Shown here piece by piece: positions 28,441 through 49,895 of a stretch of DNA of 64,000 nt. Position 1 is the first letter of the stretch; every line of letters starts with the position of its first letter. The notes below the pieces were generated by a model. The model was not told where the DNA came from. It searched no databases and saw nothing but the letters and a program-made list of their open reading frames with translations. Source of the stretch: an uncultured archaeon (lineage in GTDB: Archaea > Thermoproteota > Nitrososphaeria > Nitrososphaerales > Gagatemarchaeaceae); assembly GCA_963799775.1 (NCBI GenBank), contig CAWCYD010000003.1:32001-96000 (forward strand), written 5' to 3'. Both the position numbers and the translations under genes were made by a program.

Positions 28441-28452
28441 GTTGGTACCCGC

Positions 28453-31002: not shown

Positions 31003-33180
<2,178 letters not shown>

Positions 33181-33184
<4 letters not shown>

Positions 33185-34407
33185 AAAGTCGACCCGCGGA
33201 GAGGTCCGTCCTTACGATAAACTGCGGTTCCTCGAGCATAAAGTTCGCTCTCTTCGACGTTGTCGCCGGCAGTCCATCACGCCGGATTATCGATGGCGAG
33301 ATCGCCAGGATAGGATTACGCGACACTACCTTGACCGTGAGAGACGTTGACCGGACGAAGAACCTCTCCCGACGAATCAGGGCGGCGGACCATGCTCAGG
33401 CGGCAGCGACTCTGACAGAACTGCTCGATAGGACGAGCCGAGACATGCCCCTAGGTGCCATCGGTCATCGTGTGGTGCAAGGGGGGCCGAAGTACCACGA
33501 GCCGCGGCTTATCACCAAGAAGGTGCTCTCCGACCTCCGAAGGCTCATCCCGTTGGATCCCGAGCATCTCCCCAGCGAGATACTGCTAATCGAGGTTCTT
33601 GGCAGGCGCCTCCCTGGCCTTCCCCAGGTAGCTTGTTTCGACACGGCCTTCCACCACGACCTGCCCCGCGTGGCCCGGATTCTGCCGATTCCTCGCCGTT
33701 TCGAGGCGCGAGGCGCGAGGAGGTACGGGTTCCATGGCATCTCCTATGCGTTTCTGATGGAGGAGCTGGCGCGGCTCGCAGACCCGTCGGCCGCTACCGG
33801 CAGGGTCATACTTTGCCATCTCGGGAACGGTGCAAGTCTTGCGGCTGTCCGCGCAGGCAAGTCCGTCGACACATCGATGTGCCTCACCCCGGCTGCGGGA
33901 CTGCCCATGAGCACGCGCTCGGGAGACATCGATCCCGGGCTCTTGTCCTATCTGGCGCGCACCGAGAAGATGAGCATCACAAAGTTCCAAGACATGGTCA
34001 ACTTCCGATCGGGTCTCATCGGGATCTCAGAGACGAGCTCTGACATGCGAGACCTTCTGGCCCTCGAGACGAAAGACACGCGGGCCGCCGAAGCTGTCGC
34101 ACTCTTCTGCTACCAGGTGAAGAAATGGATCGGGGCCTACGCAGCGGCGCTCGGTGGGCTGGACACCCTGGTGTTCGCCGGCGGCATAGGAGAGAACTCG
34201 GACGTCGTCCGTGCGAGGGTCTCTGAGGGTCTTGAGTTTCTGGGGATAGTTCTCGATCCAAAGCGCAACGAGGCCAACGAGGGCGTCATCTCCGGCGATT
34301 CGAGCCGTGTCACCGTGCGCGTCATCCACACGGACGAGGAGCTGATGATCGCGAGGACCGTTTATAGCATCCTCGGCATCGGCGGAGGAAACCGCCCGAG
34401 GGGATGA
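33181..34407 (+). CDS. ackA: Acetate kinase
   Basis: [47 protein letters not shown]. Confidence 0.95.
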
Positions 34408-36807: not shown

Positions 36808-36994
36808 AGATTCGATGCCCTACGCGCTGACCTGAGGGAGAGATGCCTGCCAGAGGTCAGCTTCGATATGGAGACCCGCTCTGGCTCGCCTCGAAAGACG
36901 GAGAGGTCGTATCAGTCGGTCTCGAAAGTCGAGCCATTTCCACAAAAGGCCGGATAATACATATATAAGCTCCCAAGAAGGCGAAACGGTTCAC

Positions 36995-38002
36995 GTGGAA
37001 ACCCTCAAGGACGGAAAGGAACCAACGAAGGAAGAATTTCCGCGGGTCTCCGTGGAAGAAGCCTACGACAACCTCAAGGCGATGCACGTTCACGGGGCGG
37101 GTCGCATCGCTAGGTATGCCGCACAGGCACTGAGAGACTACGCAGGCGAAGCCAAAGCAAAGACCTCGAGAGAGTATTGGGGCCTCGTCCTCAAGGCCGG
37201 CGAGAAGCTCAGGTCCGCGAGGCCTACGGCCGTCTCGCTCCCCAACGGAGTGAACTACGTGCTCTACGGCGGAAGGACCGCCTTCGAGTCCGGCGGGTCT
37301 GTCGAGGACGTCCGGACCGCGACTGTCAACACCGCCAACGACTTCCTGACCTCCAGCTTAGACGCCGTGAAGGTGATCGGAGAGATCGGCGCTAGGCGCG
37401 TGAAGAACGGCGACGTGATAATCACACACTGCAACAGCGAAGCGGCGATGAGCGTCCTGAAGAAGGCCTACGACATGGGCAAGGGGATCAAGGTCTACTG
37501 CGACGAGACCCGACCCAAGTTCCAGGGCCACAAGACTGCGGCCGCGCTCGCGAACTATGGCATCGACACCACCCTGATCTGCGACTCTGCGTGCAGGGTC
37601 TACATGTCGCACGCCGACAGAACGGTGGTGGGCTGCGACGCAATCGCAGTCAACGGGGCGTTGGTGAACAAGATAGGGACCTCCCAGGTGGCCACGATGG
37701 CCCACGAGGCGAGGGTGAACTTCATGGTGGCAGCAGAAACCTACAAGCTTGACTTCAAGACTTTGACCGGCGGATTAGTGGACATCGAGGAGCGCGACCA
37801 CACCGAGATCGCCTCGAAGGAGTGGATGAACCACAACCCCAAGGTAAAGTTCAGCAATCCCGTATTCGATGTCACTCCCCCAGAGTACATCGACTTCTAC
37901 GTCACCGAGAAGGGAATCGTCCCTCCGGGCGGCGTCTTCTCGCTGATGAAGGAGCTATACCAGTACACAGAAGGTGCCCAGGCCAAGCCGAGCACCGGTT
38001 GA
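36995..38002 (+). CDS. Ribose-1,5-bisphosphate isomerase (eIF2B alpha-like family)
   Basis: HGAGRIA, RPTAVSL, ITHCNS (catalytic Cys), GCDAI (Asp), NKIGT, NPVFDVTP. Confidence 0.88.
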   Translation: METLKDGKEPTKEEFPRVSVEEAYDNLKAMHVHGAGRIARYAAQALRDYAGEAKAKTSREYWGLVLKAGEKLRSARPTAVSLPNGVNYVLYGGRTAFESGGSVEDVRTATVNTANDFLTSSLDAVKVIGEIGARRVKNGDVIITHCNSEAAMSVLKKAYDMGKGIKVYCDETRPKFQGHKTAAALANYGIDTTLICDSACRVYMSHADRTVVGCDAIAVNGALVNKIGTSQVATMAHEARVNFMVAAETYKLDFKTLTGGLVDIEERDHTEIASKEWMNHNPKVKFSNPVFDVTPPEYIDFYVTEKGIVPPGGVFSLMKELYQYTEGAQAKPSTG

Positions 38003-38018
38003 TTGGAGAACGCGTAAC

Positions 38019-38912
38019 ATGATAATATTCGGCGGATCCGCAGGCGAGACCCTAGCAGTGAGGGTGTCGCTCCTCACAGGAGCGAAGCTCGGAAAGGTCA
38101 AGAGGCAGAGGTTCCCAGACGGGGAGCAATACCTCAAGATCGAAGAGGACATCAAGGGCCAGGACGTCGTCCTCATCCACCCTCTCGGCGGCAGGCCCGA
38201 CGAGCTGATCATGGAGTACCTCCTCACGATCGACGCGCTGAAGAGCGCCAGCCCAAAGACGATAACCGTAGTTATCCCATACTTCGCCTATGCAAGGCAG
38301 GACGCCAGGTTCCACCCGGGTGAGCCGCTGAGCTTCCACCTGGTGGCGAAGCTCCTCGAGGGGGCGGGGATCAACAGGCTGTTCACGATAGACGTCCATC
38401 TCCAGAGGGCCCCGTCCCTGAAGGAGGTCTTCAAGATCCCGGCCGTGAACCTGACGGCGGTCCCATACATCGCGGAATACATCAACAGGATATACCAGCC
38501 GAAGAACCCAATCATCATCGGTCCTGACGACGAGTCAGAGCAATGGGCCAAGGTCGCCGCAGCGAAGATCAAGACCGACTACGCCATCCTCTCGAAGACG
38601 AGGTTCTCGTCCACCGAGGTCAAGGTCAAGGTGAGGGCGGGCCAGGGCGTCAACGTAAAGGGAAGGGACGCAATCATCATCGACGACATCATCAGCACAG
38701 GGAACACCATAGTCGAGGCCGCGAACCTCGTCAGAAAGGAAGGAGCAAGGAAGATCTACGTCGGTTGCACTCACCCCGTACTGAGCCTCAACGCGCTCCC
38801 GTTGCTGTATAGCAACCACATCGAGGGAGTGGTGGGGACCGACACCTTCGCAGGGCCGGTAAGCTTCGTGAGCGTCGCCCCGGTGATTGCGGAAGCTCTC
38901 AAGAAGAAGTAG
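38019..38912 (+). CDS. prs: Ribose-phosphate pyrophosphokinase, atypical GPDDESEQW type
   Basis: FPDGE, PYFAYARQD, IDDIISTGNT, CTHP. Confidence 0.88.
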   Translation: MIIFGGSAGETLAVRVSLLTGAKLGKVKRQRFPDGEQYLKIEEDIKGQDVVLIHPLGGRPDELIMEYLLTIDALKSASPKTITVVIPYFAYARQDARFHPGEPLSFHLVAKLLEGAGINRLFTIDVHLQRAPSLKEVFKIPAVNLTAVPYIAEYINRIYQPKNPIIIGPDDESEQWAKVAAAKIKTDYAILSKTRFSSTEVKVKVRAGQGVNVKGRDAIIIDDIISTGNTIVEAANLVRKEGARKIYVGCTHPVLSLNALPLLYSNHIEGVVGTDTFAGPVSFVSVAPVIAEALKKK

Positions 38913-39060
38913 CTTCCAGATTTCGCCGACATTCATCGGGCCGACAAGAGCCTAGACTCAGTTCTCTCCCCCTTGCGACTTGCGTCAAGCACAACTGTGT
39001 CTAGGGCATTTGTCTCGAGACAGAAAACCCTCTACATCTTTGGGAAAAACAGAAAGGCGA

Positions 39061-39078
39061 AGGCCCGGCGCGGGGCCT
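39061..39078 (-). terminator. Putative terminator for the rbcL + small ORF transcript
   Basis: AGGCCC-N6-GGGCCT hairpin followed on the minus strand by a T-rich tract (TTTCTGTTTTT). Confidence 0.45.
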
Positions 39079-39100
39079 GCCCAAGTCGGGGAGGAATGAC

Positions 39101-39271
39101 TCAGAAGTTCTTAGCCGGTGCGCCCGAGTCCTTCAGGTAGTGGAGCTGGTAGGGCTTGCCCGACATCCCCGCTATGCAGCACGTGCATCCGTAGTCTGCG
39201 CACTGAAGCGAGTTGTCGTGAGAGCAAGACCCGCAGGAACAGAAGATGTCGCCCTGAGTATGGTTCTTCAT
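39101..39271 (-). CDS. 56-aa Cys-rich small protein downstream of RuBisCO (not in ORF track)
   Basis: MKNHTQGDIFCSCGSCSHDNSLQCADYGCTCCIAGMSGKPYQLHYLKDSGAPAKNF; AAAGGAG RBS 8 nt upstream; starts 15 nt after rbcL stop. Confidence 0.75.
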   Translation of the reverse strand: MKNHTQGDIFCSCGSCSHDNSLQCADYGCTCCIAGMSGKPYQLHYLKDSGAPAKNF

Positions 39272-39286
39272 GTTCTAGGCTCCTTT

Positions 39287-40714
39287 CTACTCCGAGCGGA
39301 ACATGTGCCGGTAGTCGCTCTCCTTCTTCCCTAGCTCCGGTACTGCGGTCATCGCGGAAGCCACCGCGTACTTTTGCCCGAAGAACTGGATTGCAGCCTC
39401 GAGCTCCGGGTGGGTCTTTGCGTACTCGTCGACGGGGATCTTCTTCATGTAGGCGTCGACTGCCTGCCTCGCAGCGGTCGCGCCGGCCTTGGTCCCCCAT
39501 GGGTGTCCGTGGACGCTCCCGCCGTTCTGCAGCACGATATCGAGCCCCATCAGGTCGATGGAGTAGTGGTAGTTCTGCGGAGTCAAGCCCCCCGAGGAGA
39601 CCCCCCATATCGGCTTGATGTGGCCCAGAGGACCTTGTATCGCGTCCATTACCTCTGGTATCTCGACGAACTTTATCGCGTCTCCTAGCTTACCCCTGGC
39701 CGTGCCGACGTGGATCGCGTCTCCCCCCGCGATCCTGCCTAGCGCAGCGATGACCTTGAAACTGATTCCGTGCCTAGGGTGTCGTGTGAGTGCGGCGTGC
39801 GAAGCCCTGTGCAGGTGGATGGGGACGTTTATGCTGGGGTCCTCCGCGAGCGCCCTCAGAGAGGGGTACCAACTGCACATGATGTTCAGCATGAGGCCCT
39901 TGGCGCCGTGCGCGATCATCTTGTCCGCAACCTCGAGCGTCCTCTCGGAGTCGGTAGTCACCTCGGGTGCGTACATGTAGTCGCCCTCCGGGTGGGCGCC
40001 CTCGGACTTGGCCTTGTCGAGCGCCTCGTTGACCTTGGCGACGCGGTCGAGTAGAGGAGAGCACCACTGGTTGTGGTATGTCTCGTCGTCCTTGAACGTG
40101 TCGACCCCTCCCATTGCTGCATCGTAGAACTGCTGGGCTGCTCCCACGTCGGTCACGCCCATCTTCGGCTTGATCGTTATTCCCACGTGCGGTCGCCTGC
40201 TCTTCTTCGTCCCGACGATCTCCCTCAACCCTTCTACGCCGAACTTCGAACCCTTGAAGAGCTTGAGGACGTCCTTGGGAAGTTGGAAATCGATCCATTT
40301 GCAGTTCGGAATCGGCGTGAAGCCCATCCAGTTCCCTGTCACGAAGGTGAACAGGTCGGGAATTCCCCTGTTGTCCATGTCTAGCAGGTATGTGGGAAAG
40401 GCCACCTTGACCCATCCCGAGTGCTTCAGCGAGCCTGAGGGATCCTCGTACTTCCAAGAATAGAGCTTGGCCGCTGTCTTCGTGGAAAGGTCTGTTGCGG
40501 TGGACACATCCGTGAAAGTCCCCACAGACTGTTCGGCGGCGATGATAACGCCCGCTTGGTCGATGGTGACGCGCGGATCGCACGTTATGAAGAACGTGGC
40601 AAGGACGTTCTTGTCGACGTCGACCTTCTCTGGAGTGGTAGAGAACAGGTCTCCTCTGTCGTGTTCTACGCTTGGGGCGCTCCATGTCCTTTCAATCATC
40701 GCTTCTTGTGTCAT
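39287..40714 (-). CDS. rbcL: RuBisCO large subunit, divergent form III-like
   Basis: AAEQSVGT, TGN, IKPKMG, FKDDE, HLHRA, HVGT..GKL, SSGG, GGSVHGHP. Confidence 0.9.
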   Translation of the reverse strand: MTQEAMIERTWSAPSVEHDRGDLFSTTPEKVDVDKNVLATFFITCDPRVTIDQAGVIIAAEQSVGTFTDVSTATDLSTKTAAKLYSWKYEDPSGSLKHSGWVKVAFPTYLLDMDNRGIPDLFTFVTGNWMGFTPIPNCKWIDFQLPKDVLKLFKGSKFGVEGLREIVGTKKSRRPHVGITIKPKMGVTDVGAAQQFYDAAMGGVDTFKDDETYHNQWCSPLLDRVAKVNEALDKAKSEGAHPEGDYMYAPEVTTDSERTLEVADKMIAHGAKGLMLNIMCSWYPSLRALAEDPSINVPIHLHRASHAALTRHPRHGISFKVIAALGRIAGGDAIHVGTARGKLGDAIKFVEIPEVMDAIQGPLGHIKPIWGVSSGGLTPQNYHYSIDLMGLDIVLQNGGSVHGHPWGTKAGATAARQAVDAYMKKIPVDEYAKTHPELEAAIQFFGQKYAVASAMTAVPELGKKESDYRHMFRSE

Positions 40715-40903
40715 GTAAACCTGAAATTTCAGCCTCCGCAGGTTATTTATGTCTTAGTCGTTATCTGGCGATTCGAGATCCCTGCGTAACGACAACAGTC
40801 GAAGAGATTCTCATGAGATGTCCTTCACAAAATCTCAAACGGGCGCTCGCGTCCTCGTTAAGCTTAAAACGGGGACGCGCTTTGGCGGCTTCGGATTCAG
40901 GAG

Positions 40904-41938
40904 TTGGCTAGTCTCTCCATCGAAAGCCTGACCGTACTCCTAAACAAGTTTCAGGGCAAGCGCATGCTTGTCGTCGGCGATTTTCTCGTTAGCAGGTTCG
41001 TCGAAGTCTCAGCAAGGAAGCTCGCACGCGAAGCCCCCGTCCCGGCTGGCGACTACGTCGGCGAGACGCTGCTCCCAGGGGGCGCAGCTAACCTCGCGAA
41101 CGAGGTCGCATCGCTCGGAGGCCAGGTCTCCGTCATAGGCTCCATCGGGGAAGACAACTACGGAATCTGGCTGAAGGAGGGCCTGACAAGGAACGGCGTC
41201 GCGACGGAAGGCATAGTCGCGGACAAGCTGAGGCCGACGTCTTTGCGGACCTGGATCATGGTAAACAGACTACACTACCTTCGCATCGACCAGGAAGTCA
41301 GGAAGGAGGTATCGATAGCGGTCACAAAGTCTCTCGCTGCAGCGGCGGAGGTCATGATTCCAAACGTCGACGCGGTGGTGTTCTCCGACTATGACAGAGG
41401 GGTCGTCACTTCTTCTCTCATCAGCTCGGTCGTCGCTTCTGCGCGAAAGGCAGGCAAGATCGTGGTCGCACAGCCAAAGGACAGGCACTACATGGACTAC
41501 TCTGGCGTGACCTACGTGAAGTCCAACCTTGGGGAGGCGACCCACGCCACCGGCATGGCGATGGTCAATGAGACGAGTTTGAGGAACATGGGTGTAAACC
41601 TTATGGGCAGGTTGGACTGCAAGGGCCTAGTGATCACCCGTGGTGAGGAGGGCATGACGGTTTTCGATAGAGAGCAGATAACGAGCTTCCCACTTCCGTT
41701 CGGGAGGAAGAGCTTCTTCAACAAGGTCGGGGTCCGCGATGCCATGACGGGCGTGTTCGCCCTCGCCGTCGCGGCGGGCGGCTCGATATCGGAGGCGGCA
41801 TGCCTGAGCAACATAGCGGGGACGGTGAGGAGTGAGAAGCCCAGGACCTCGACTCTGACTGCTGAAGACCTCCACAAGAAGCTCGAATCGATGGGAGACT
41901 TCCTCAGCCGCGTCTCCCAGATGCCGGTGAGGCGTTAG
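40904..41938 (+). CDS. PfkB-family kinase, HldE/RfaE-kinase-like, with altered anion hole
   Basis: VVGDF, REAPVP, PGGAANLA, LRID.E, FSDY.RGV, ITRGEEGM; GVRD replaces GAGD. Confidence 0.8.
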   Translation: MASLSIESLTVLLNKFQGKRMLVVGDFLVSRFVEVSARKLAREAPVPAGDYVGETLLPGGAANLANEVASLGGQVSVIGSIGEDNYGIWLKEGLTRNGVATEGIVADKLRPTSLRTWIMVNRLHYLRIDQEVRKEVSIAVTKSLAAAAEVMIPNVDAVVFSDYDRGVVTSSLISSVVASARKAGKIVVAQPKDRHYMDYSGVTYVKSNLGEATHATGMAMVNETSLRNMGVNLMGRLDCKGLVITRGEEGMTVFDREQITSFPLPFGRKSFFNKVGVRDAMTGVFALAVAAGGSISEAACLSNIAGTVRSEKPRTSTLTAEDLHKKLESMGDFLSRVSQMPVRR

Positions 41939-41943
41939 AGATC

Positions 41944-42773
41944 ATGGGAATGGCCCCCACCTCCCAGGAGATTACGAGGCTCCAGGACATGGCAAGGAAC
42001 ACCAGGAAGCTCATCCTCGAGACGCTCGCAGAAGCCGGCTCGGGGCACCCAGGAGGGTCGCTCTCGGCAGTGGAACTCCTGGTCACGCTCTACTTCTACA
42101 AGCTCCGTCACGACCCAAAGAACCCAAAGTGGCCGGAAAGGGACAGGTTCATCCTAAGCAAGGGACACGGGGCGCCTCTCCTCTATTCGATCCTCGCTCA
42201 AGCTGGATATTTCCCGCTCGCTGAGCTCAAGTCCTTGAGGAAGCTCGGGGCCTTGCTCCAGGGTCACCCTGACATGGACATCCCTGGAGTCGAGATGCCC
42301 GCCGGCTCCGAGGGCATCGGTCTCTCCGTCGGCGTGGGACAGGCCCTCGCGGCAAGGCTAGACAACAGACCCACGAGGACCAGTACGTCCTGATGGGCGA
42401 CGGAGAGCAGGGTGAGGGCGAGGTGTGGGAGGCGGCGATGTCAGCTTCCAAGTTCAAGCTTGACAACCTCGTCGGGATGATCGACAGGAACGGCATCCAG
42501 CAGGACGGTCTCACCGAGCAGATCATGCCCCTCGAGCCTCTGGCCGCAAAGTGGAGGGCTTTCAACTGGAACGTCATCGAGGTCGACGGCTACGACTACC
42601 TCCAGCTGATAGAGGCCTTCGACACGGCCGAGATGGTCAAGAACAGGCCCACGATGATCATCGCCCACACGGTCAAGGGCAAGGGAATCTCCTTCATGGA
42701 GTGGTCCCCGACCTATCACGGGACCGCGCCGACGAAGGAGAGGATGGAAGACATCTACAAGGAGCTAAAGTAA
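41944..42773 (+). CDS. Transketolase N-terminal subunit (frameshift near 42380)
   Basis: SGHPGGSLS, RDRFILSKGH, LQGHP, GDGE..EG.VWEA, HTVKGKG. Confidence 0.92.
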
Positions 42774-42779
42774 GTAGGG

Positions 42780-43508
42780 ATGATGTTGGAGACGACGATC
42801 CCTCCGAGAGAGATAAAGCGCGTCATCAAGATCGCTCCATCGATCCTGGGCGGCGACCAGTCCAACTTCGCAGCAGCATTGGATATCGCGGTCAAGGGCG
42901 GGGCTGACCAGATCCACCTCGACGTCATCGACGGACACTTCGCGCCGAACATAACCTTCGGGCCTGGGACCGTGAAGGCCCTGAGGAAGAAGACCGATTT
43001 GAAGTTCGACACGCACTTGATGATCGACCAGCCTGAGAACTTCGTCGACAAGTTCCTGGACGCGGGCTCTGACCTGTTCTGCTTCCACGCGGAGGCACTG
43101 ACCGGGGAGCGATTCGACGCGATATACTCCAAAGTCCATGCAAAGGGCAAGGTGATGGGCCTGGCGCTCAAGCCCTCGACCGAGATGCCAAAGTGGGTCG
43201 AGCAGAGGCTGGACAAGCTCGACACGCTGTGCGTGATGACGGTGAACCCAGGTTTCAGCGGCCAATCGATGATGATGGACGTGATGCCTAAGCTAGAGAA
43301 GATAACGCAGATGCTGAACGACAAGGGGCTCCCCATCGACATCGAGATAGACGGCGGGGTGGAGCTGGAGACCCTGGAGAACGTCGTGCGACGCGGAGGA
43401 AACGTCCTCGTCGCAGGCGCAGGAGTCTATTACAAGCCAGACCCGATCAAGGCCGTGGGGATACTGCGAGAAAAGGCGAAGCAGGCGTTAACGGTGGGGG
43501 CCAATTAA
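42780..43508 (+). CDS. rpe: Ribulose-phosphate 3-epimerase
   Basis: IAPSIL, HLDVIDGHFAPN, DTHLM, MTVNPGFSGQ, IDGGV. Confidence 0.95.
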   Translation: MMLETTIPPREIKRVIKIAPSILGGDQSNFAAALDIAVKGGADQIHLDVIDGHFAPNITFGPGTVKALRKKTDLKFDTHLMIDQPENFVDKFLDAGSDLFCFHAEALTGERFDAIYSKVHAKGKVMGLALKPSTEMPKWVEQRLDKLDTLCVMTVNPGFSGQSMMMDVMPKLEKITQMLNDKGLPIDIEIDGGVELETLENVVRRGGNVLVAGAGVYYKPDPIKAVGILREKAKQALTVGAN

Positions 43509-43509
43509 G

Positions 43510-44469
43510 ATGCTAGAGAAAATGGGAGCGATGCGGAATGCCTACGGCGAGGCTCTCGTCGAGCTGGGCGCCAACAACCAGCGGATAGTGGTCCTGGGCG
43601 CCGACACCACAGATTCTATGAAGTCCGGGATGTTCGGGGTCAAGTATCCTGACAGGTTCTTCAACCTCGGAATCGCGGAGCAGAACCTCGTCGGCGTCGC
43701 CGCGGGGCTCGCCTTCGGAGGGAAGATCGCCTACGCAGGCACCTACGCCATCTTCGTCCCCGGAAAGTGCGTCGACCAGATACGGAACATGCTCTGCTAT
43801 GCCGACCTCGACGTCAAGATAGTCTGTTCCCACGCGGGGATCACGGTAGGCCCCGACGGAGGCTCGCACGAGCAGGTCGAGGACATAGCTCTGATGCGGT
43901 GCATACCTCACATGAGGGTCGTCGTCCCCGCGGACGCCGTGGCCGTCAAGGGCATAGTCAAGGCGATCGCGGACATCCCCGGACCGTTCTACGTGAGGAT
44001 CACCAGGGGAGTGATCAAGGGCTCGAACACCCCCATCGTGTACGAGAACGGCTTCGAGTACAAGCTGGGCAAGGTGAACGTGATCAGGGAAGGGAGCGAC
44101 GTCGCGCTCTTCGCGTGCGGGATAATGGTCCCGGAGGCGATGAGGGCCGCCGAGTCGCTGGCGAAGAAAGGGGTGCAGGCCAGCGTCATCGACGTCCACA
44201 CGGTAAAGCCGATAGACGAGGAGACGGTAATCAAATACGCAAGGAAGTGCGGCGCAGCCGTGAGCGCAGAGGAGCACAACGTCCTAGGGGGGATGGGCTC
44301 AGCCCTCGCGGAGGTCTTCACCGACCAGTATCCGATCCCGTTGAAGAGGGTCGGAGTGATGGACACCTTCGGGGAGAGCGGCGAGGCACAGGAACTTCTC
44401 AACAAATACGGGCTGACGGCCGCACACATCGAGGAGGCAGCCTCGCAGTCTGTAGCGATGAAACGATAG
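43510..44469 (+). CDS. Transketolase C-terminal subunit
   Basis: GIAEQNL, GPDGGSHE..ED, EEHNVLGGMG, DTFGESG. Confidence 0.93.
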   Translation: MLEKMGAMRNAYGEALVELGANNQRIVVLGADTTDSMKSGMFGVKYPDRFFNLGIAEQNLVGVAAGLAFGGKIAYAGTYAIFVPGKCVDQIRNMLCYADLDVKIVCSHAGITVGPDGGSHEQVEDIALMRCIPHMRVVVPADAVAVKGIVKAIADIPGPFYVRITRGVIKGSNTPIVYENGFEYKLGKVNVIREGSDVALFACGIMVPEAMRAAESLAKKGVQASVIDVHTVKPIDEETVIKYARKCGAAVSAEEHNVLGGMGSALAEVFTDQYPIPLKRVGVMDTFGESGEAQELLNKYGLTAAHIEEAASQSVAMKR

Positions 44470-44503
44470 GCTTATTAAAAGAAATCCGACCCAAAACTTC
44501 GCC

Positions 44504-45178
44504 ATGATGAAGTTCTACCTGGACACCGCGAACTTAGCATCCATCAAGAAGTACAACGCGATGGGCCTCGTCGACGGGGTGACGACAAACCCCACTTTGA
44601 TCGTAAAGGAGGGCGCAGACTTTGAAGAGACGATCAAGGCGATATGCAAGGAGGTCTACCCGAACCCTGTCAGCGCAGAAGTGACCGCGACCGACTACGA
44701 GGGGATGGTCTCCGAGGGCAAGCGCAACAAGGCCTTCGCCGAGAACGTCGTGGTGAAGATCCCAATGATCCCAGAGGGCCTAAAGGCGACGAAGACGCTC
44801 AGCAAGATGGGCATCCCGATCAACATGACGCTCATCTTCTCCGCCAACCAGGCTCTCGCTGCGGCCAAGGCCGGCGCCTCCTACCTCAGCCCGTTCATCG
44901 GGAGGCTGGACGACATCGGACAGGACGGGATGGGCATGATCCGCGACCTAGTCGCGATCAAAAGGGCTTATCCGGGGACTTTCAAGGCGGAGATACTTGT
45001 AGCCAGCATCAGGCACCCCATACATGTGATGGAGGCTGCCAAGTTGGGCGCCGACATCGGCACGATGCCCGCTGAGGTCATGGACAAGCTGCTCCTGCAT
45101 CCTCTCACAGAAATCGGGTTGAAGCGCTTCTTGGACGACTGGAACAAGGCCAAGAAGGAAAAGCCGCTCACAGTCTAG
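44504..45178 (+). CDS. tal: Transaldolase (TalC/FSA family)
   Basis: GVTTNP, SAEV, VVKIP (Schiff-base Lys), SPFIGR; Glu/Phe pattern indicates transaldolase rather than FSA. Confidence 0.9.
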   Translation: MMKFYLDTANLASIKKYNAMGLVDGVTTNPTLIVKEGADFEETIKAICKEVYPNPVSAEVTATDYEGMVSEGKRNKAFAENVVVKIPMIPEGLKATKTLSKMGIPINMTLIFSANQALAAAKAGASYLSPFIGRLDDIGQDGMGMIRDLVAIKRAYPGTFKAEILVASIRHPIHVMEAAKLGADIGTMPAEVMDKLLLHPLTEIGLKRFLDDWNKAKKEKPLTV

Positions 45179-45278
45179 AGTCAGAGAGCCGTTCTGACGG
45201 CGCGACCGGATTGCGCATCATCTGGATGAAAACCTGAAGGAGATTTCGCTCGTCGCGAGAGAGTCTTGAACGCTAGAG

Positions 45279-45753
45279 CTACTTCTTCGTGACGGCGCCC
45301 TTGACGTCTGCCATGTAGACACCGAGCCTGCCTATCTCGTACGTTAGCATCTCGAGGTCCATCGAGCTGTAGTAGTTCTGGTTGTTCCTGAGGTAGTTCG
45401 TCAGCGCCCCGTACCGGTCGTAGAAGTGCTTGGAAGCCAACTCTGGCCATTTTGCGTCGATCTCCCTGAGCGCGAGCCTGCGTTCATAGTTCCCCTTTGG
45501 GACCTTGTGAAGGAGCTTGTCGACAAGAATGTCTGTGACCTGAGTAAGAACGATCCATGACTTTTCAGAAGCCTCTCTGAACGGAAGCACGCCACCGGGG
45601 CCTCCTCGGGCATAGGTGAAGGTCCATTCCCTCGTAGGAGGTGTTCTCCGCCGCCTTGAGAAGGGCCGGCAGGTCTCCGAAGAGCTTCTCTGAGTTCGCC
45701 CAGAGCTCAGTCATGCTCATAGAGTATTTCTGGGTGTTTAGTATCTTGTTCAC
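45279..45753 (-). CDS. Hypothetical helical protein, HEPN/PaREP1-like (frameshift near 45600)
   Basis: REASEKSW resembles the PaREP1 QASEK.W motif; split over two ORFs. Confidence 0.4.
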
Positions 45754-45881
45754 GAGAATATTCCGCTCTCTCGTGTCGTTTAAGAAGATTGCGACGAAGC
45801 GAGAAGCCTTCTCTCCGACGGCTGTCGAATTTGGAACTCGCTAGCATTTAAAGCGCCGCGGCTTGGCGAAAGGGCGAAGCA

Positions 45882-46491
45882 ATGCAGAGACCTACCGGGG
45901 CTCAGGACAAGACTTCGACGGTCCTTGAGGACTTCCTCGCCGCCCTCCGGGACACTCCACGTCCAAGGTCATGTGGTCAAGAGCGAGCCCGAGACGACCA
46001 AGGCGCTGAAGGGCATCCTCTCGGAAGCCGGCTCCCGGTCTGTCGTGGCGGCTGGGATACCGAGCCGCTACAGGAAAGCGGTCGACGCAGCGCTCGCCGG
46101 CCTGAGGTCGGACCATGTGGAAGAGATGAAAGGCACAACTCCAGAGAAGGCGGTAGGCGTCCTGGCCTCTGCCGACGCAGGCATCACGTGGGCCGTGAAC
46201 GGCCTAGCGATGGAGGGCGCAATGCTCGAAGTCGTTTACGACGATTCCCTGAAGCTCGCCTCCTCCTTGCCGATCCTCCATGTGGCCCTGCTCGAATCGT
46301 CGAGCATCCTGCGCGACCTCTCCGAGGCGATGCCCCTAGTGAAGGAATACGTCGCAGGCGCGCCTCCAGACAAAAAGCCGGTGATCTCCTTCATCGCAGG
46401 CCCCAGCAAGACCGGCGACATCGAGATGAGGTTGCTCTACGGAGTCCACGGGCCCCACACAGTGCATGCCATAATCCTCGACTGGGAGTGA
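45882..46491 (+). CDS. lutC: LutC/LUD-domain protein (frameshift near 45950)
   Basis: ADAGIT, LASSLPILHV, ISFIAGPSKTGDIE..L.YGVHGP. Confidence 0.85.
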
Positions 46492-46501
46492 AGAACCGAG
46501 C

Positions 46502-48609
46502 ATGACGAACAACCGGCAGGTTCATCCTCGCCAAGCTGAAACGCGCCCTCAAGGACAAGGACTCCTCGGAGAAGTTCTGGGCCGCCATGACCAAGGCGAG
46601 GGCGAACCGCGAGGCCCTACTCGCCCAGGGCAAGCTGGACATCCACGCCATCAAAGAGTCGAACCGGGCTCTGAAGATGTCCGCGGTGGCCGACACCAGC
46701 CTGGTCCAGGAGTTCGCCGACAACATCACCAAGAACGGCGGGAAGGTCTTCATCGCCAAGACAGGCGCCGAGGCCATCCACTACGTGGAGGAGGTCTCGA
46801 AGAGGGTCGGCGCGAAGCTCATAGTCAAGGCCAAGTCGCTCACTTCAGACGAGATAGACTTTACACATGAGCTGGAGAAGTCGGGGGTCAAGGCGGTCGA
46901 GACCGACCTCGGAGAGCTGATCATACAAGTTGCCGGCGAGACCCCGGTCCATCTCGTCATGCCCGCCGCACACAAGTCGGTGCAAGAGATCGCTCAACTT
47001 GTCTCCAGCGCGGTGGGGAGGGAGATCCCCCCGGAAGACCAGGCGATACTGAGCGCGGTGAGGGCGTACCTCAGGCAGCTCTTCTTGACTGCAGAGATCG
47101 GCGTCACAGGGGCGAACATCGGGATAGCGGAGACCGGCTCCATCGTGATAGAGACGAACGAGGGCAACGGCCGTCTGGTCACCGCGATCCCGAAGGTGCA
47201 CCTCGTCATCATCGGGATGGAGAAGATAGTGCCAAAGTGGGCGGACGCGACCTACCTCGTGAAGGGGCACAGCGCGAGCGCCACTGGGCAGAACATGACG
47301 GTCTACGTCTCCGTTATCACGCAACACGCGCCCTTGGCGGGCTCCACGGACGGGAGGGAATACCACGTGATCATCCTCGACAACGGCAGGAGCAAGATGA
47401 GGGACGACCCCTGGTTCTCTGACGCTCTCAACTGCATCAGGTGCGGGGCGTGTATGAACATCTGCCCCACGTACGGAGTCGCCGGCGGGCACACCTTCGG
47501 CTACATCTATCCCGGCCCCATCGGGATCCCATGGACTGCGGAGGTCCACGGCCTGGACAAGGCCACCTTCGCCCACCTCTGCGTCTCGTGCGGCCTATGC
47601 AAGGAGATCTGCCCCGTGGACATCAACATCCCCATGATGATCGCAAAGGTCAAGGAGGAAGAGGTCCGGGAGAACGGACAGCTCACGGTAAACAGCTTCT
47701 TCATGTCCTCGGAGTCCCTCGCGAAGCTCGCGAGCGCGACGGCTCCCGCCTCGAACTGGCTCCTCAGAAGGAGCGCGACGAGGGCGGTGATGGAGTCCCT
47801 GGTCGGCGTCGACAAGAGAAGGACGCTCCCAAGCTTCTCCAGGAAGAGGTTGCGCAAGCGGATCGAAGGCCTGAGCAACGGAGAGGGGAACGCCGGGAAG
47901 GTCGTCTTCTTCCCGGACGTCTACGCCGACTACAACGACCCCGAACTCGGGGTGAGGGCCTTCAAGATCCTGGTCTCCCTGGGCTACAAGGTCGAGTGTC
48001 CCCAACCTTCATTGGAGCGGGATGCCATACATCTCGTATGGCGACATCGCAAAGGCGACCTCTGTTGCGAAGACCAACCTCGAGTCGCTCAAGAAGTATC
48101 TTGACGACGGCTATTCGGTCGTCTCCACCGAGCCCACGGCGATCTACATGTTCAAGGAGGTCTACCCAACCCTCGTCCCCGGCGCCCTCGCAGAGAAGGC
48201 CCGGACCGCGAGCTTCCCGTTCTTCGGCTTCATCCAGGAGGGACTCGGACAGCTCGAGCTCGACCCGGTCTATCCTACCCAAAAGCCGATAGGCTTCCAC
48301 ATCCCGTGCCACGACCGGGCCGTCTCGTCCGGAGGGCCCGCGATGGCCTTCCTCCGCGCGGCCGGGTACGACGTAAAGGTCGTCGAGGACGGCACTTGCT
48401 GCGGGATGGCAGGGACCTTCGGCATGAAGAAGGGGGACCTGGGCTACAACCTCTCGATGGAGGTGGGCGACCACCTCTTCAGGCTCTTCAGAGGCTCGGG
48501 CCTTGACCTTGTGGCCACGGAGAGCAGCGTCTGCTCGATGCAGATCTCGGACGGAGTGGGGCTGAAGGTCGTCCACCCGCTCTTGACGGCGAACCACGGC
48601 TCGAATTGA
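46502..48609 (+). CDS. lutB: LutB/LldF-type Fe-S oxidoreductase with C-terminal CCG (GlcF-like) domains (frameshifts near 46520 and 48005)
   Basis: ETDLGELIIQ, PVH.VMPA.H, NEGNGRL, CIRCGACMNICP, CVSCGLCKEICP, HIPCH, CCGMAG. Confidence 0.88.
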
Positions 48610-48692
48610 GTCGCGGGCCTACCCAAGATTCCCGCGCACGAGCAACCGAGGGGCTCTACGGCTTAAGAATGGCTCTCCGCCCGGGATAAGCG

Positions 48693-49778
48693 ATGACAGA
48701 GAAGCTCCTGATGGTCCCAGGCCCGACGAACCTCTCGAAGAAGGTGCGGGAGGTCATCTCGCAGGCGCAGGTGGGCCACACAGACCCAGACTTTGTCAAG
48801 AACTTCACCGAGACGCTGGAGCTCGCAAGGAAGGTCTTCAAGAACAGCAAGGGCCACCAGTTCGTCTTCACCGGCACGGGAACCGTCGGCATGGAGGCCG
48901 CCGTTGCCGCAACGGTAGAGCCTGGGGACAAGGCCCTCGTCCTCAACACAGGATACTTCGGCCAGAGGATGGCGGACATCAACCGGGTCTACGGGGCGAA
49001 AGTGGAGGAGCTGACCACCGGGTTCGGTCAGCACGCCGACCCTGGAGACGTCCGCAAGAAGCTGACCGGAGGGTCGTTCAAAGCCCTCTATGTCACCCAC
49101 GTGGACACAGGCACGACGGTCTGCAACCCGATAGCGGAGATCGTCGCCGAGGCCAAGAAGGCCGGACTCATCGCAGTCGTGGACGGAGTGTGCTCGGTGG
49201 GAGGGCTCGAGCTCGACTTCGACAGACTAGGCGCAGACGTCGCATTCACCGGCTCCCAGAAGGCGCTCGCGGCCCCGCCAGGAGCCGTCCTGATCGCCAC
49301 GTCCAGGGAGTTCTTCACCAGGCTCGAGGCGAGGAGGGAGAGCGTCATGACGTATTACGCGAACCTGCTGAGATGGAAGATGGTGATGGACGACCCGAAG
49401 ACGTACTTCGCGACCCACGCCGTGCAGCTGCTCCAGGCCCTGAACCAGGCCTTGAAGGAGGTCCAGGAAGAAGGGATGGAGAAGCGCTGGCAGAGGCACA
49501 AGGCCAACGCCAGAATAATCCGCGACGGGATCGAGGTCACCAACAGCAAGCTCGTCGTAGAGCAGGGCTACAGGGCGGACACCGTGACGGGCCTCTGGAC
49601 AGAGCCTGGGGCGGCACCCGTCATCCAGAAATCCCTGCGGGAAGAGCACGGGATAGACGTCGCGAGGGGCCTGGGCGAGAACAACTCGAAGATGCTCAGG
49701 GTCGGCCACTTTGGGAACCTCACCGAGCAGCAGTCGAGGTTCTTCGTGGACTCGTTCAAGGCTTCGCTTCAAAAGTGA
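48693..49778 (+). CDS. Class V aminotransferase (alanine/serine-glyoxylate type)
   Basis: LMVPGPT, GTGT.GMEA, HVDTGT, DGVCS, GSQKALAAPPG. Confidence 0.9.
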   Translation: MTEKLLMVPGPTNLSKKVREVISQAQVGHTDPDFVKNFTETLELARKVFKNSKGHQFVFTGTGTVGMEAAVAATVEPGDKALVLNTGYFGQRMADINRVYGAKVEELTTGFGQHADPGDVRKKLTGGSFKALYVTHVDTGTTVCNPIAEIVAEAKKAGLIAVVDGVCSVGGLELDFDRLGADVAFTGSQKALAAPPGAVLIATSREFFTRLEARRESVMTYYANLLRWKMVMDDPKTYFATHAVQLLQALNQALKEVQEEGMEKRWQRHKANARIIRDGIEVTNSKLVVEQGYRADTVTGLWTEPGAAPVIQKSLREEHGIDVARGLGENNSKMLRVGHFGNLTEQQSRFFVDSFKASLQK

Positions 49779-49895
49779 GGCGTAAGAGCCCCTACTCCGT
49801 TTCGCAGCCGCCGAAGGCTCCTCCGAGGAAACGCCAAGAGTCGAAGAAAATCTGGATGAGGTTTTATACCTCCGAGAGGTCGCGTGGTGAACTCG

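What the first reader, a model, noticed from the sequence alone, without database searches (positions are those of the whole stretch)
36995..49778. Candidate PRK-independent RuBisCO cycle: form III-like rbcL clustered with non-oxidative PPP, R15P isomerase, PRS and a C1 sugar-phosphate kinase
Seen: R15P isomerase and prs lie on one side of rbcL. A divergent operon of kinase-tktN-rpe-tktC-tal lies on the other, followed by lutC-lutB and an aminotransferase. No phosphoribulokinase or AMP phosphorylase is in the window. Established: archaeal form III RuBisCO normally serves nucleoside salvage (AMP phosphorylase or R1P kinase, then R15P isomerase). A transaldolase variant of the Calvin cycle using form III RuBisCO is known in Thermodesulfobium, but it uses PRK. 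Inference: here transketolase, transaldolase and Rpe regenerate pentose phosphates, and RuBP is made via R5P to R15P (through the kinase or PRPP) and the isomerase. That would be a cyclic CO2-fixing or electron-balancing route in an archaeon.
Basis: partly seen in the sequence, partly recalled or inferred. Interest (0 to 1): 0.92.

Follow-up and report, generated by a model that had tools for sequence, protein, structure and literature searches.

The report
Thaumarchaeal RuBisCO module with partner protein
A non-ammonia-oxidising soil-type archaeon carries an already described PRK-free RuBisCO gene set beside its pentose-phosphate genes, and this RuBisCO appears to come with a small partner protein that had gone unnoticed.

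Summary
No PRK and no AMP phosphorylase above cut-off were found in any of 23 genus genomes.

The idea is not new. The same PRK-free, AMPase-free route (PPP, PRPP, R15P, RuBP, RuBisCO) is published for marine relatives. The rbcL/R15P-isomerase/prs adjacency is published for this soil family.

The kinase is not part of it. It heads the PPP operon in four families, mostly RuBisCO-less, and was not found in the marine RuBisCO lineage.

A closed cycle is unsupported. No FBPase of classes I, II or V was found, only an IMPase-family candidate.

New here:
- The prs is a dedicated paralogue.
- A HEPN/PaREP1-like 143-178 aa protein (window 45279-45753, minus strand) occurs in exactly the genomes with this RuBisCO clade.
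- That protein is predicted to bind the RbcL dimer: score 0.86, best control 0.01.
- A stand-alone Hsp70 paralogue is also linked.

Best reading: a CO2-incorporating pentose-to-3-PGA shunt in a heterotroph.

The parts
36995..38002 (+). Ribose-1,5-bisphosphate isomerase (e2b2)
   Evidence: TIGR00511 380 bits, cut-off 314. In the order sample it exceeds the cut-off in 16 of 121 genomes, 14 of which also carry RuBisCO.
38019..38912 (+). Dedicated ribose-phosphate diphosphokinase paralogue (Prs2). The ORF as listed starts at 37974.
   Evidence: TIGR01251 288.5 bits. G000 also has a housekeeping prs on contig C2 and a third divergent copy. RuBisCO-less genus members have one prs. Prs motifs are kept.
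39287..40714 (-). Divergent form III-A-like RuBisCO large subunit
   Evidence: PF00016 and PF02788 match. The type III equivalog scores 286 bits, below its cut-off of 497. Catalytic motifs are kept. It sits on a long branch apart from type III-b. It is 73-77% identical to the RuBisCO of marine heterotrophic Thaumarchaeota.
40904..41938 (+). HldE/RfaE-domain-I-like PfkB kinase, first gene of the PPP operon. Neighbour of the RuBisCO module, not a member.
   Evidence: TIGR02198 230 bits, below cut-off 345. Best PDB match is HldA 4e84, 118 bits. Its phyletic pattern is independent of RuBisCO. The kin-tktN-rpe operon is kept in 10 of 10 RuBisCO-less f1 loci and 10 of 10 loci of f4, f7 and f9. G[VIL]RD replaces GAGD.
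41944..42773 (+). Transketolase N-terminal subunit, split into two ORFs by a +2 nt difference near 42381
   Evidence: PF00456 covers model positions 4-130 and 151-268 on two ORFs. Relatives are in frame. DNA alignment with L121.
42780..43508 (+). Ribulose-phosphate 3-epimerase
   Evidence: PF00834 196 bits. NF004076 202 bits, cut-off 165.
43510..44469 (+). Transketolase C-terminal subunit
   Evidence: PF02779 and PF02780 match.
44504..45178 (+). Short transaldolase / fructose-6-phosphate aldolase family protein
   Evidence: TIGR00875 282 bits, cut-off 246.
45279..45753 (-). HEPN/PaREP1-like small protein ('orf175' family, alignment A2), predicted RuBisCO partner. Frameshifted near 45627 in this assembly.
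   Evidence: Homologue of the gene directly downstream of rbcL in marine loci.
Strong matches occur in exactly the 14 genomes of 121 that carry this RuBisCO clade.
In the genus, 8 of 8 RuBisCO-positive genomes have it.
No direct Pfam or NCBIfam hit.
Distant homologues hit PF05942.
The fold search and the Atlas both point to HEPN.
Complex score 0.86, best control 0.01.
49884..51695 (+). Stand-alone divergent Hsp70/DnaK paralogue linked to rbcL
   Evidence: TIGR02350 622 bits, below cut-off 822. The housekeeping dnaK lies in a grpE-dnaK-dnaJ operon elsewhere. An hsp70 lies within about 10 kb of rbcL in 14 of 14 genomes with this RuBisCO clade, and within about 1.1 kb in 12 of 14.

Best explanation
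The window holds one more copy of the thaumarchaeal 'divergent form III-A' RuBisCO module. The host is a non-ammonia-oxidising archaeon whose nearest named relatives are Group I.1c (Gagatemarchaeaceae) MAGs.

The module is R15P isomerase + a dedicated Prs paralogue + RuBisCO. It is parked next to the family's native kinase-tkt-rpe-tkt-tal operon.

Proposed flow:
1. Pentose phosphates from the non-oxidative PPP give R5P. The genes are shown; the flux is inferred.
2. Prs2 makes PRPP. Family membership and conserved linkage are shown; activity is inferred.
3. PRPP loses a phosphate to give R15P. No enzyme is assigned. Candidates are a Nudix hydrolase, of which the genome gave 14 matches, or spontaneous decay. 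This step is inferred.
4. The isomerase makes RuBP.
5. RuBisCO adds CO2 to give two 3-PGA.

In a heterotroph this works as a CO2-incorporating pentose-to-3-PGA shunt that tops up carbon, rather than as an autotrophic cycle.

Two further genes belong to the module. One is a clade-specific HEPN/PaREP1-like protein predicted to sit across the RbcL dimer. The other is a stand-alone Hsp70 paralogue. The PfkB kinase belongs to the PPP operon, not to RuBP supply.
For: Gene identities.

RuBisCO keeps the KPK, KDDE, HRAxHA, IHVG..GKL, SGG and GGxxHGHP motifs.

Alternative RuBP sources: PRK in 0 of 23 genus genomes, and AMP phosphorylase above cut-off in 0 of 23.

Linkage of prs and the isomerase:
- The prs-isomerase pair is adjacent in the window, L006, L007, L009, L121, 8 marine loci (L012-L017, L020, L021) and the 52% sister clade L022.
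- Four of 4 marine genomes examined, two of them about 1 Mb or smaller, have a prs beside the isomerase plus a further prs match elsewhere. Two of those second matches are partial, and one is below the cut-off.
- A genome with canonical form III RuBisCO has one prs, and it is not adjacent.

The isomerase above cut-off tracks RuBisCO in 14 of 16 genomes.

In marine loci pgk follows prs in the same operon.

Partner protein:
- In the order sample, 14 of 14 genomes with this RuBisCO clade have it.
- 0 of 6 genomes with canonical form III have it.
- 2 weak partial hits occur in the other 101 genomes.
- In the genus, 8 of 8 RuBisCO-positive genomes have it, plus 1 of 15 RuBisCO-negative genomes, that one only 59% complete.
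- A 2-nt gap separates rbcL from this gene in L014.
- Complex prediction scored 0.86, best of 3 controls 0.01. That mark was reached by 58 of 80 solved complexes and 2 of 110 mismatched pairs. The runs share at least 67% of contacts, and partner pLDDT is at least 84.

Hsp70 linkage: 14 of 14.

The published proposals agree with this reading.
Against: - No enzyme is assigned to PRPP to R15P, and nothing here measures activity.
- The genome is 81.7% complete and carries many frameshifted genes, including tktN and the partner gene in this very cluster. These may be assembly errors or real decay. If real, the PPP link is broken in this strain.
- RuBisCO scores below the NCBIfam type III cut-off, and the residue recalled as W66 is F in this clade.
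- The co-occurrence counts rest on about 2 to 4 independent lineages, because relatives are not independent.
- Clade-specific RbcL substitutions are not significantly enriched at the predicted interface: 8 of 29 against 62 of 392, p = 0.12.
- The complex job differs from the tool's calibration. It used my own alignments and a dimer plus partner.
- Fold hits to HEPN are not significant on their own (best E = 0.03).
Confidence: 0.6

Rival explanations
1. One reading: a complete, PRK-independent autotrophic (or electron-balancing) RuBisCO cycle. 3-PGA is taken through gluconeogenesis and the adjacent tkt/tal/rpe genes back to R5P and RuBP.
For: PPP genes flank the module in both lineages, and pgk is in the marine operon. 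rpiA is present. The same cyclisation was proposed in print for marine relatives.
Against: - FBPase: none of class V, none of class II, and only a 20-bit class I match. That match is an IMPase-family ORF.
- There is no amoA and no evident lithotrophic energy source. The family is described as organoheterotrophic.
- RuBP via PRPP costs two ATP equivalents. This is established biochemistry, recalled.
- The module is confined to a subclade: 8 of 23 genus genomes, and 1 of 14 sampled family genomes.
Confidence: 0.12
2. The PfkB kinase supplies RuBisCO directly. It would phosphorylate C1 of R5P to give R15P, or C1 of Ru5P to give RuBP as a PRK analogue.
For: It is HldE-like, a family that phosphorylates the anomeric C1 of a sugar phosphate (the chemistry is recalled). 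It is divergently transcribed from rbcL in the window, 189 nt apart.
Against: - It is present in f1 14/14, f4 9/9, f7 12/13 and f9 11/11, of which only genus g1 has RuBisCO.
- It was found in 0 of 14 genomes of the marine RuBisCO family, and 0 of 10 marine loci had a hit.
- The kin-tktN-rpe operon is intact in 10 of 10 RuBisCO-less f1 loci and in 10 of 10 loci of f4, f7 and f9. Two of those families are ammonia oxidisers.
- None of the 13 RuBisCO-less f1 genomes has an R15P isomerase above cut-off.
Confidence: 0.05
3. This is classical nucleotide or nucleoside salvage (a pentose bisphosphate pathway). R15P comes from nucleosides via R1P and an unrecognised R1P kinase or a non-homologous AMP phosphorylase. 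The prs is linked only because it shares the R5P pool.
For: Form III RuBisCO plus R15P isomerase is the signature of that pathway (recalled; summarised). The kinase has a weak 30-bit match to the haloarchaeal ATP-dependent R1P kinase model.
Against: - AMP phosphorylase is above cut-off in 0 of 23 genus genomes.
- The dedicated prs paralogue stays glued to the isomerase in three diverged lineages, including reduced genomes.
- The marine lineage was not found to have the kinase.
- I did not search for nucleoside phosphorylases or ADP-dependent kinases.
Confidence: 0.13
4. The small HEPN-like gene and the Hsp70 paralogue are passengers, for example a toxin-antitoxin remnant and a spare chaperone. 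They have no functional tie to RuBisCO, and the predicted complex is a false pass.
For: - HEPN/PaREP1 proteins are usually toxins or CRISPR-associated.
- In the window the gene is 4.5 kb from rbcL, on the far side of the PPP operon.
- There is no significant enrichment of clade-specific residues at the interface.
- 2 of 110 mismatched pairs reach the mark.
Against: - Co-occurrence is exact across the order and genus samples.
- Linkage is kept despite rearranged gene order in g1 and in three marine genera.
- No MNT-type antitoxin was seen beside it.
- The recalled HEPN Rx4-6H histidine is an invariant tyrosine.
- Invariant partner residues (W53, Y76, R109-N111, Y114, D119) lie in the predicted interface.
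Confidence: 0.3

Closest known systems
PRPP-fed, PRK-free and AMPase-free RuBisCO route proposed for marine pSL12-like / heterotrophic marine Thaumarchaeota (Reji & Francis, bioRxiv 10.1101/2019.12.22.886556; Aylward & Santoro, PMC7300363)
   Same: Same RuBisCO clade, 73-77% identity. Same set: R15P isomerase, prs, non-oxidative PPP, with no PRK and no AMPase. Same proposed PRPP to R15P step by Nudix or abiotic decay, and the same cyclisation idea.
   Different: The host here is a terrestrial-type lineage with a 2.47 Mb genome, split tkt, and the PPP operon headed by a kinase that the marine lineage was not found to have. In what I read, those papers mention neither a dedicated prs paralogue, nor the HEPN-like neighbour, nor the Hsp70 paralogue. 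Supplements were not seen.
rbcL + R15P isomerase + prs adjacency in three topsoil Gagatemarchaeaceae (Group I.1c) genomes (Sheridan et al., PMC10640624; passages only)
   Same: Same three adjacent genes, and the same patchy presence within the family. palsa_1368, listed in that family, is locus L007 with 91% RbcL identity and the same gene order.
   Different: That paper reads it as carbon fixation without discussing RuBP supply, the kinase or the accessory genes, in the passages I saw.
Archaeal AMP / pentose bisphosphate pathway of Thermococcus kodakarensis (recalled; summarised)
   Same: R15P isomerase feeding a form III-type RuBisCO.
   Different: AMP phosphorylase, the R15P-forming enzyme of that pathway, is not present above cut-off. 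A prs paralogue is linked instead.
Reductive hexulose-phosphate pathway of methanogens with form III-a RuBisCO (recalled; summarised) and the transaldolase variant of the Calvin cycle in Thermodesulfobium
   Same: A form III-type RuBisCO placed in a regenerating sugar-phosphate network.
   Different: Both use PRK, and no PRK was found here.
Form I RuBisCO small subunit RbcS
   Same: A small non-catalytic protein, encoded next to rbcL in the marine loci, and predicted to contact two large subunits.
   Different: The fold is unrelated: an all-helical HEPN-like bundle. Archaeal form III enzymes are described as lacking any small subunit. Binding is predicted, not shown.
HldE/HldA D-glycero-beta-D-manno-heptose-7-phosphate kinase
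   Same: Best family and structure match of the kinase.
   Different: It scores below the equivalog cut-off. It carries G[VIL]RD where PfkB kinases have GAGD (the canonical motif is recalled). Its conserved partners are tkt, rpe and tal, not heptose genes.

Membership tests
Bona fide RuBisCO (carboxylating forms I-III) | Catalytic and RuBP-binding residues: the KPK pair, the carbamylated Lys in KDDE, HRxxH, the H and K of loop 6, SGG and GG (residue list recalled) | tested here: met
   All motifs align with solved form III enzymes and are invariant in alignment A1. The one deviation is GTF in place of GTW in this clade.
Type III RuBisCO (NCBIfam TIGR03326 equivalog) | Score above the curated cut-off of 497.45 bits | tested here: not met
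   286.3 bits. In the tree it lies on a long branch, apart from sequences named type III / III-b.
Form III-a as in methanogens | Co-occurrence with PRK (RHP pathway) | tested here: not met
   PF00485 found in 0 of 23 genus genomes. Published trees call the marine homologues divergent III-a. My tree held only one named methanogen III-a-type sequence and no form I or II outgroup.
Ribose-1,5-bisphosphate isomerase | TIGR00511 above cut-off 314.1 | tested here: met
   380 bits.
Ribose-phosphate diphosphokinase | TIGR01251 above cut-off 113, with the R5P loop and flexible-loop motifs (motifs recalled) | tested here: met
   288.5 bits. The DD(I/M)IS(T/S)G.T and K.R motifs are kept in the Prs2 copies. 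The archaeal equivalog NF002095 scores 290.7, just below its cut-off of 296.
AMP / pentose bisphosphate pathway | AMP phosphorylase (TIGR03327, cut-off 535) | tested here: not met
   Best match is 38.4 bits in G000. It is above cut-off in 0 of 23 genus genomes.
Calvin-Benson-Bassham cycle or a closed variant | PRK, and an FBPase/SBPase to return triose phosphate to F6P | tested here: not met
   No PRK. PF01950: none. PF03320: none. PF00316: 20 bits only. An IMPase-family ORF (PF00459, 133 bits) remains an untested candidate.
HldE-type heptose-7-phosphate kinase | TIGR02198 above cut-off 345, and the PfkB GAGD anion-hole motif (recalled) | tested here: not met
   230 bits. G[VIL]RD appears in 10 of 10 sequences from four families. 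I did not search for gmhA or hldC.
HEPN superfamily (PaREP1 branch) | Four-helix up-down bundle, the Rx4-6H motif (recalled), and a Pfam match | tested here: inconclusive
   The model is helical, pLDDT 87.
The best PDB folds are HEPN, but E = 0.03 and TM about 0.5.
There is no direct Pfam hit.
Seven of 10 distant homologues match PF05942 at E <= 0.01, 6 of them above its cut-off.
The Atlas first hit is HEPN/PaREP1 at 0.91.
The motif Arg is kept, but the His position is an invariant Tyr.
DnaK (TIGR02350 equivalog) | Score above cut-off 822.55, and a grpE-dnaK-dnaJ context | tested here: not met
   The window copy scores 622.5 bits and stands alone. The canonical operon is at C3:191.6-195.3 kb.

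The most novel reading that the evidence does not exclude
This thaumarchaeal RuBisCO clade may be a two-component enzyme. A HEPN/PaREP1-derived protein of about 150 aa, with its nuclease histidine replaced, would bind across the L2 dimer as an obligate accessory subunit. It would act either as a structural analogue of RbcS or as an adaptor for the rbcL-linked Hsp70 paralogue. In the second case that Hsp70 would serve as an assembly or remodelling chaperone (an activase-like role) for RuBisCO. This would be the first accessory subunit reported for an archaeal form III-type RuBisCO.
Probability: 0.3. Interest if true: 0.8.

Novelty: new variant of a known kind. Interest (0 to 1): 0.55.

Why it matters
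The pathway idea itself is already in the literature, so the window adds a further terrestrial genome carrying the module rather than a new cycle.

What matters is that comparative genomics now sorts the parts.

- The kinase can be set aside.
- The prs is a dedicated paralogue. This is the strongest genomic argument so far that PRPP, not AMP or Ru5P, feeds this RuBisCO.
- Two overlooked genes travel with this RuBisCO clade in both marine and soil lineages.

If the small HEPN-like protein really binds RbcL, then form III-type RuBisCOs are not always subunit-free. Attempts to express or kinetically survey this abundant dark-ocean and peat-soil RuBisCO without its partner could mislead.

It also leaves a sharply defined open question: which enzyme, if any, turns PRPP into R15P. 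That can be tested with four or five purified proteins.

Tried and rejected
- **Kinase as the R15P/RuBP source.** Rejected on phyletic pattern and operon conservation.
- **ack-phosphoketolase as part of the module.** Rejected. XFP is in 1 of 23 genus genomes and lies in a 10.3 kb island absent from L121, L007 and L009.
- **A changed chemistry for Prs2 (for example R5P 1-kinase).** The alignment shows the usual Prs motifs, so there is no support.
- **Prs3.** This third, divergent prs-like gene occurs in 4 of 4 RuBisCO-positive and 0 of 9 RuBisCO-negative genus genomes. Its neighbours (ThiI, a nucleotidyltransferase, an ABC transporter) give no link, and none of the 4 marine genomes searched gave a third prs match. 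Left open.
- **A second module around the extra IF-2B-family gene at C3:1928.4-1929.4 kb.** The neighbours are unrelated, and the gene is frameshifted.
- **orf128 of the marine e2b2-prs-pgk operon as the missing enzyme.** It has no homologue in G000.
- **The partner gene in the 52% sister clade.** Not found in the 3.9 kb downstream of rbcL in L022.
- **Enrichment of clade-specific RbcL residues at the predicted interface.** Not significant.
- **Fold search of the partner.** No hit at E <= 0.001.
- **Not searched.** Nucleoside phosphorylases, ADP-dependent kinases, PhnN, APRT, gmhA/hldC, class IV FBPase activity, GAPDH, and FBP aldolase in G000.
- **Not seen.** Supplements of the three key papers (Fig. 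S1 of Reji & Francis; Data Sets S1, S3 and S4 of Aylward & Santoro; Supplementary Data 10-11 of Sheridan et al.). They may already list the neighbours discussed here.

Full report
**What is there**

- R15P isomerase, 36995-38002: TIGR00511 380 bits, cut-off 314.
- prs, 37974-38912: TIGR01251 288.5 bits.
- RuBisCO large chain on the minus strand, 39287-40714.
- On the plus strand, a PfkB kinase at 40904-41938. Its best model is RfaE domain I at 230 bits, below the cut-off of 345.
- tktN, rpe, tktC and a short transaldolase, ending at 45178.
- LUD-type genes and a class V aminotransferase follow.

The genome is 2.47 Mb in 3 contigs, 59% G+C and 81.7% complete. It is archaeal: the SSU models score 1474 bits (archaeal) against 1091 (bacterial).

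**RuBisCO**

The RuBisCO matches solved form III enzymes best (8dht 221 bits, 2cwx 219 bits). It keeps every catalytic motif I could align: KPK, KDDE, HRAxHA, IHVG..GKL, SGG and GGxxHGHP. The residue list is recalled. The one deviation is GTF where other forms have GTW. It falls below the NCBIfam type III cut-off, 286 against 497 bits. In a 41-row tree without form I or II outgroups it sits on a long branch (0.61 plus a 0.47 stem), apart from sequences named type III / III-b.

- PRK (PF00485): none in G000 and none in any of 23 genomes of the genus.
- AMP phosphorylase (TIGR03327, cut-off 535): best match 38 bits in G000, above cut-off in 0 of 23. The weak matches occur in RuBisCO-less genomes too.
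- RuBisCO: one copy.
- rpiA: present at C3:1162074-1162553.
- FBPase: class V none, GlpX none, class I only a 20-bit match. That match is an IMPase-family ORF with PF00459 at 133 bits.
- amoA: absent from G000 and from 0 of 14 sampled genomes of its family.

**Who the relatives are, and what is in print**

The closest RbcL homologues are in MAGs labelled Thaumarchaeota or Nitrososphaerales. At 89-91% identity these include palsa_1368. At 73-77% they include the marine MAGs UBA223, SAT139, ASW2/ASW8, ALOHA and ATL.

- Reji & Francis (bioRxiv 10.1101/2019.12.22.886556; I read abstract passages and sections 12 and 13 whole) describe, for the marine pSL12-like lineage, a form III-a-like RuBisCO with R15P isomerase but no PRK and no AMPase. 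They propose R5P to PRPP (prs), then R15P (abiotic or Nudix), then RuBP, then 3-PGA, cyclised through gluconeogenesis and the non-oxidative PPP.
- Aylward & Santoro (PMC7300363; passages) report the same for heterotrophic marine Thaumarchaeota. They find 17 of 19 key residues conserved and report high expression.
- Sheridan et al. (PMC10640624; passages) state that three topsoil Gagatemarchaeaceae genomes carry rbcL, R15P isomerase and prs adjacent to each other. These genes are absent from the rest of the family, and the family lacks phosphofructokinase. palsa-1368 is listed in that family.

**Synteny**

- L006, L007 and L121 keep e2b2-prs-rbcL-kin-tktN-rpe-tktC-tal. L008 and L009 break at a contig end. 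In L007 rbcL is inverted relative to the window.
- Eight marine loci (L012-L017, L020, L021) hold prs-e2b2, rpe, a fused tkt, tal, rbcL and hsp70 within about 10 kb. L018 and L019 are shorter and hold tkt, tal, rbcL and hsp70. None of the 10 marine loci has a kinase hit.
- In L014 the order is e2b2-prs-pgk-orf128 on one strand.
- The 52% sister clade (L022) keeps e2b2, prs and rbcL.

**The kinase is not part of the RuBisCO module**

In an even sample of 121 genomes of the order, the kinase is in f1 14/14, f4 9/9, f7 12/13 and f9 11/11, and in none of the other 16 sampled families. That includes 0 of 14 in f14, the marine RuBisCO family. RuBisCO is in f1 1/14 (only the window's genus), f14 12/14, and a few others with canonical form III.

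- kin lies next to tktN in 10 of 10 loci from RuBisCO-less f1 genomes. rpe is seen in 9 of 10; one locus ends early.
- kin-tktN-rpe-tktC is intact in 10 of 10 loci from f4, f7 and f9, with tal in 9 of 10, down to 37% kinase identity.
- f4 and f9 are ammonia oxidisers: amoA 9/9 and 11/11.
- A bona fide R15P isomerase is above cut-off in 16 of 121 genomes, 14 of them with RuBisCO, and in none of the 13 RuBisCO-less f1 genomes.

The kinase is therefore an old PPP-operon gene whose role cannot be RuBP supply in most of its hosts. It is HldE-like (PDB 4e84 118 bits; Atlas 0.97) but carries G[VIL]RD where PfkB kinases have GAGD, in 10 of 10 sequences. The canonical motif is recalled. Its substrate is unknown.

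**The prs is a dedicated paralogue**

G000 has three prs-family genes:
- the module copy, 288.6 bits;
- a housekeeping copy on C2, split by a frameshift and next to the best Nudix match;
- a divergent third copy, 156 bits.

Of the 13 genus genomes, the 9 without RuBisCO have one prs. G118 and G126 have all three types. G130 shows a partial module copy, the third type and a fragment.

In the marine family, 4 of 4 genomes examined have a prs abutting the isomerase plus a second prs elsewhere. Two of these genomes are about 1 Mb or smaller. Two of the second copies are partial, and one of those is below the cut-off. A genome with canonical form III and an adjacent isomerase has a single, unlinked prs. 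Prs2 keeps the usual Prs motifs.

This is good comparative evidence that PRPP feeds this RuBisCO. The enzyme for PRPP to R15P remains unassigned. The genome gave 14 Nudix matches.

**An overlooked partner gene**

In marine loci a gene of 175-178 aa follows rbcL, 2 nt after its stop in L014. Its homologue lies in the window at 45279-45753 on the minus strand, between tal and the LUD genes. It is broken by one extra base near 45627. It is intact in L006, L008 and L121.

It has no Pfam or NCBIfam hit.

*Wider homologues*
- A wide search found 131 homologues at E <= 0.001 among 2401 scored candidates. The 120 best were listed; every named one is 'hypothetical', and the few carrying an organism label are thaumarchaeal.
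- A scan of 1.84 billion representatives found 55 proteins. Only two are full-length clusters.
- Of 10 distant ones scanned, 7 match PF05942 (PaREP1, a HEPN-type family) at E <= 0.01, and 6 are above its cut-off.

*Fold*
- The AlphaFold model (pLDDT 87) is a helical bundle.
- Its best PDB matches are HEPN domains, but none reaches E <= 0.001.
- The Atlas first hit is HEPN/PaREP1 at 0.91.
- The motif Arg is kept, but the His position of the recalled Rx4-6H motif is an invariant Tyr.

*Distribution*
- In the order sample, strong matches occur in exactly the 14 genomes that carry this RuBisCO clade.
- None occurs in the 6 genomes with canonical form III.
- Only two weak partial hits occur elsewhere.
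- In the genus it is in 8 of 8 RuBisCO-positive genomes, and in 1 of 15 RuBisCO-negative ones; that one is 59% complete.
- These counts rest on perhaps 2 to 4 independent lineages.

*Predicted complex*

A complex prediction of an RbcL dimer (residues 25-445) with this protein scored 0.86. The best of 3 controls scored 0.01. That mark was reached by 58 of 80 solved complexes and 2 of 110 mismatched pairs. The runs agree in at least 67% of contacts, and partner pLDDT is at least 84.

The partner touches both RbcL copies, and invariant partner residues lie in the interface. This supports binding but does not show it. The job also differs from the calibration. Clade-specific RbcL substitutions are not significantly enriched at the interface: 8 of 29 against 62 of 392, p = 0.12.

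**A linked Hsp70**

- The window's hsp70 (49884-51695) is below the DnaK equivalog cut-off, 622 against 822 bits, and stands alone. The canonical grpE-dnaK-dnaJ operon lies at C3:191.6-195.3 kb.
- An hsp70 lies within about 10 kb of rbcL in 14 of 14 genomes with this RuBisCO clade, and within about 1.1 kb in 12 of 14.
- Thirteen of the 14 show a second hsp70 elsewhere.
- The 6 canonical form III genomes have one hsp70 each.

I found no mention of DnaK, Hsp70 or an accessory subunit in the main texts I searched. A 2026 preprint states that form III lacks any small subunit. Supplements were closed.

**Assembly quality and surroundings**

Several genes are frameshifted in this assembly:
- tktN (+2 nt);
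- the partner gene (+1 nt);
- the LdhH-like gene;
- phosphoketolase;
- the housekeeping prs and dnaK;
- two IF-2B paralogues.

ack plus phosphoketolase, directly upstream of the isomerase, lie in a 10.3 kb stretch (about 26.6-36.9 kb). That stretch is missing from three relatives, and XFP is in 1 of 23 genus genomes.

**Verdict**

The kinase route is disfavoured, and a closed cycle lacks an identified FBPase and an energy source. The most likely function is a PRPP-fed, CO2-incorporating pentose-to-3-PGA shunt in a heterotroph.

The new and testable points are the dedicated Prs paralogue and the RuBisCO-linked HEPN-like protein and Hsp70 paralogue.

Noticed in passing
window 26600-36950 (ack 33181-34407; phosphoketolase 34404-36807, split into two ORFs): A stretch of about 10.3 kb is absent from relatives L121, L007 and L009. 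It carries acetate kinase and a phosphoketolase, and XFP_N is found in only 1 of 23 genus genomes. G+C is slightly raised (0.61-0.64). It is likely a laterally acquired island. Together with tkt, tal and rpe it would allow a bifid-shunt-like route to acetyl phosphate.
   Followed up: partly
window 40904-41938 and loci L088-L097, L110-L119: An HldE-like PfkB kinase heads a kin-tktN-rpe-tktC-tal operon in four Nitrososphaerales families, two of them ammonia oxidisers. Identity to the window's kinase falls as low as 37%. It carries an invariant G[VIL]RD in place of the PfkB GAGD motif and a conserved C-terminal Q.P[VIL].[RK] tail. Its substrate is unknown. The family is reported to lack phosphofructokinase.
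   Followed up: partly
G000 C2:164685-166351 (locus L131): The housekeeping prs, split by a frameshift, sits directly downstream of the genome's best Nudix match (85 bits). It is a candidate PRPP or ADP-ribose pyrophosphatase.
   Followed up: partly
G000 C3:786549-787457 (locus L133:5047-6066): A third, divergent prs-like gene (156 bits, with insertions) is found in 4 of 4 RuBisCO-positive and 0 of 9 RuBisCO-negative genus genomes. None of the 4 marine genomes searched gave a third prs match. Its neighbours are ThiI, a nucleotidyltransferase and an ABC transporter.
   Followed up: partly
window 41944-42773, 45279-45753, 46587-48609 and 34404-36807; also C2:164685-165559, C3:192250-193597, C3:1239824-1240753 and C3:1928400-1929400: There are many frameshifted or stop-interrupted genes in a 3-contig assembly, and completeness is only 81.7%. 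The two indels examined (+2 nt and +1 nt) are not in long homopolymers. Whether they are assembly error or real decay is unresolved.
   Followed up: partly
L014:1864-5379 (minus strand): The marine operon is e2b2-prs-pgk followed by a conserved 128-aa ORF with no family hit. That ORF is found in 8 marine loci and has no homologue in G000.
   Followed up: partly
L007:9913-11616: In palsa_1368 rbcL is inverted relative to the window, so all module and PPP genes read in one direction.
   Followed up: no
G000, whole genome: ARAGORN in bacterial mode finds only 18 tRNAs. Several have lengths of 94-97 nt or unreadable anticodons, which suggests intron-bearing archaeal tRNAs.
   Followed up: no
window 45882-46505: The LutC-like ORF gives no Pfam hit in the window, whereas its L006 counterpart matches the LUD domain at 86 bits. 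It may be another frame problem.
   Followed up: no
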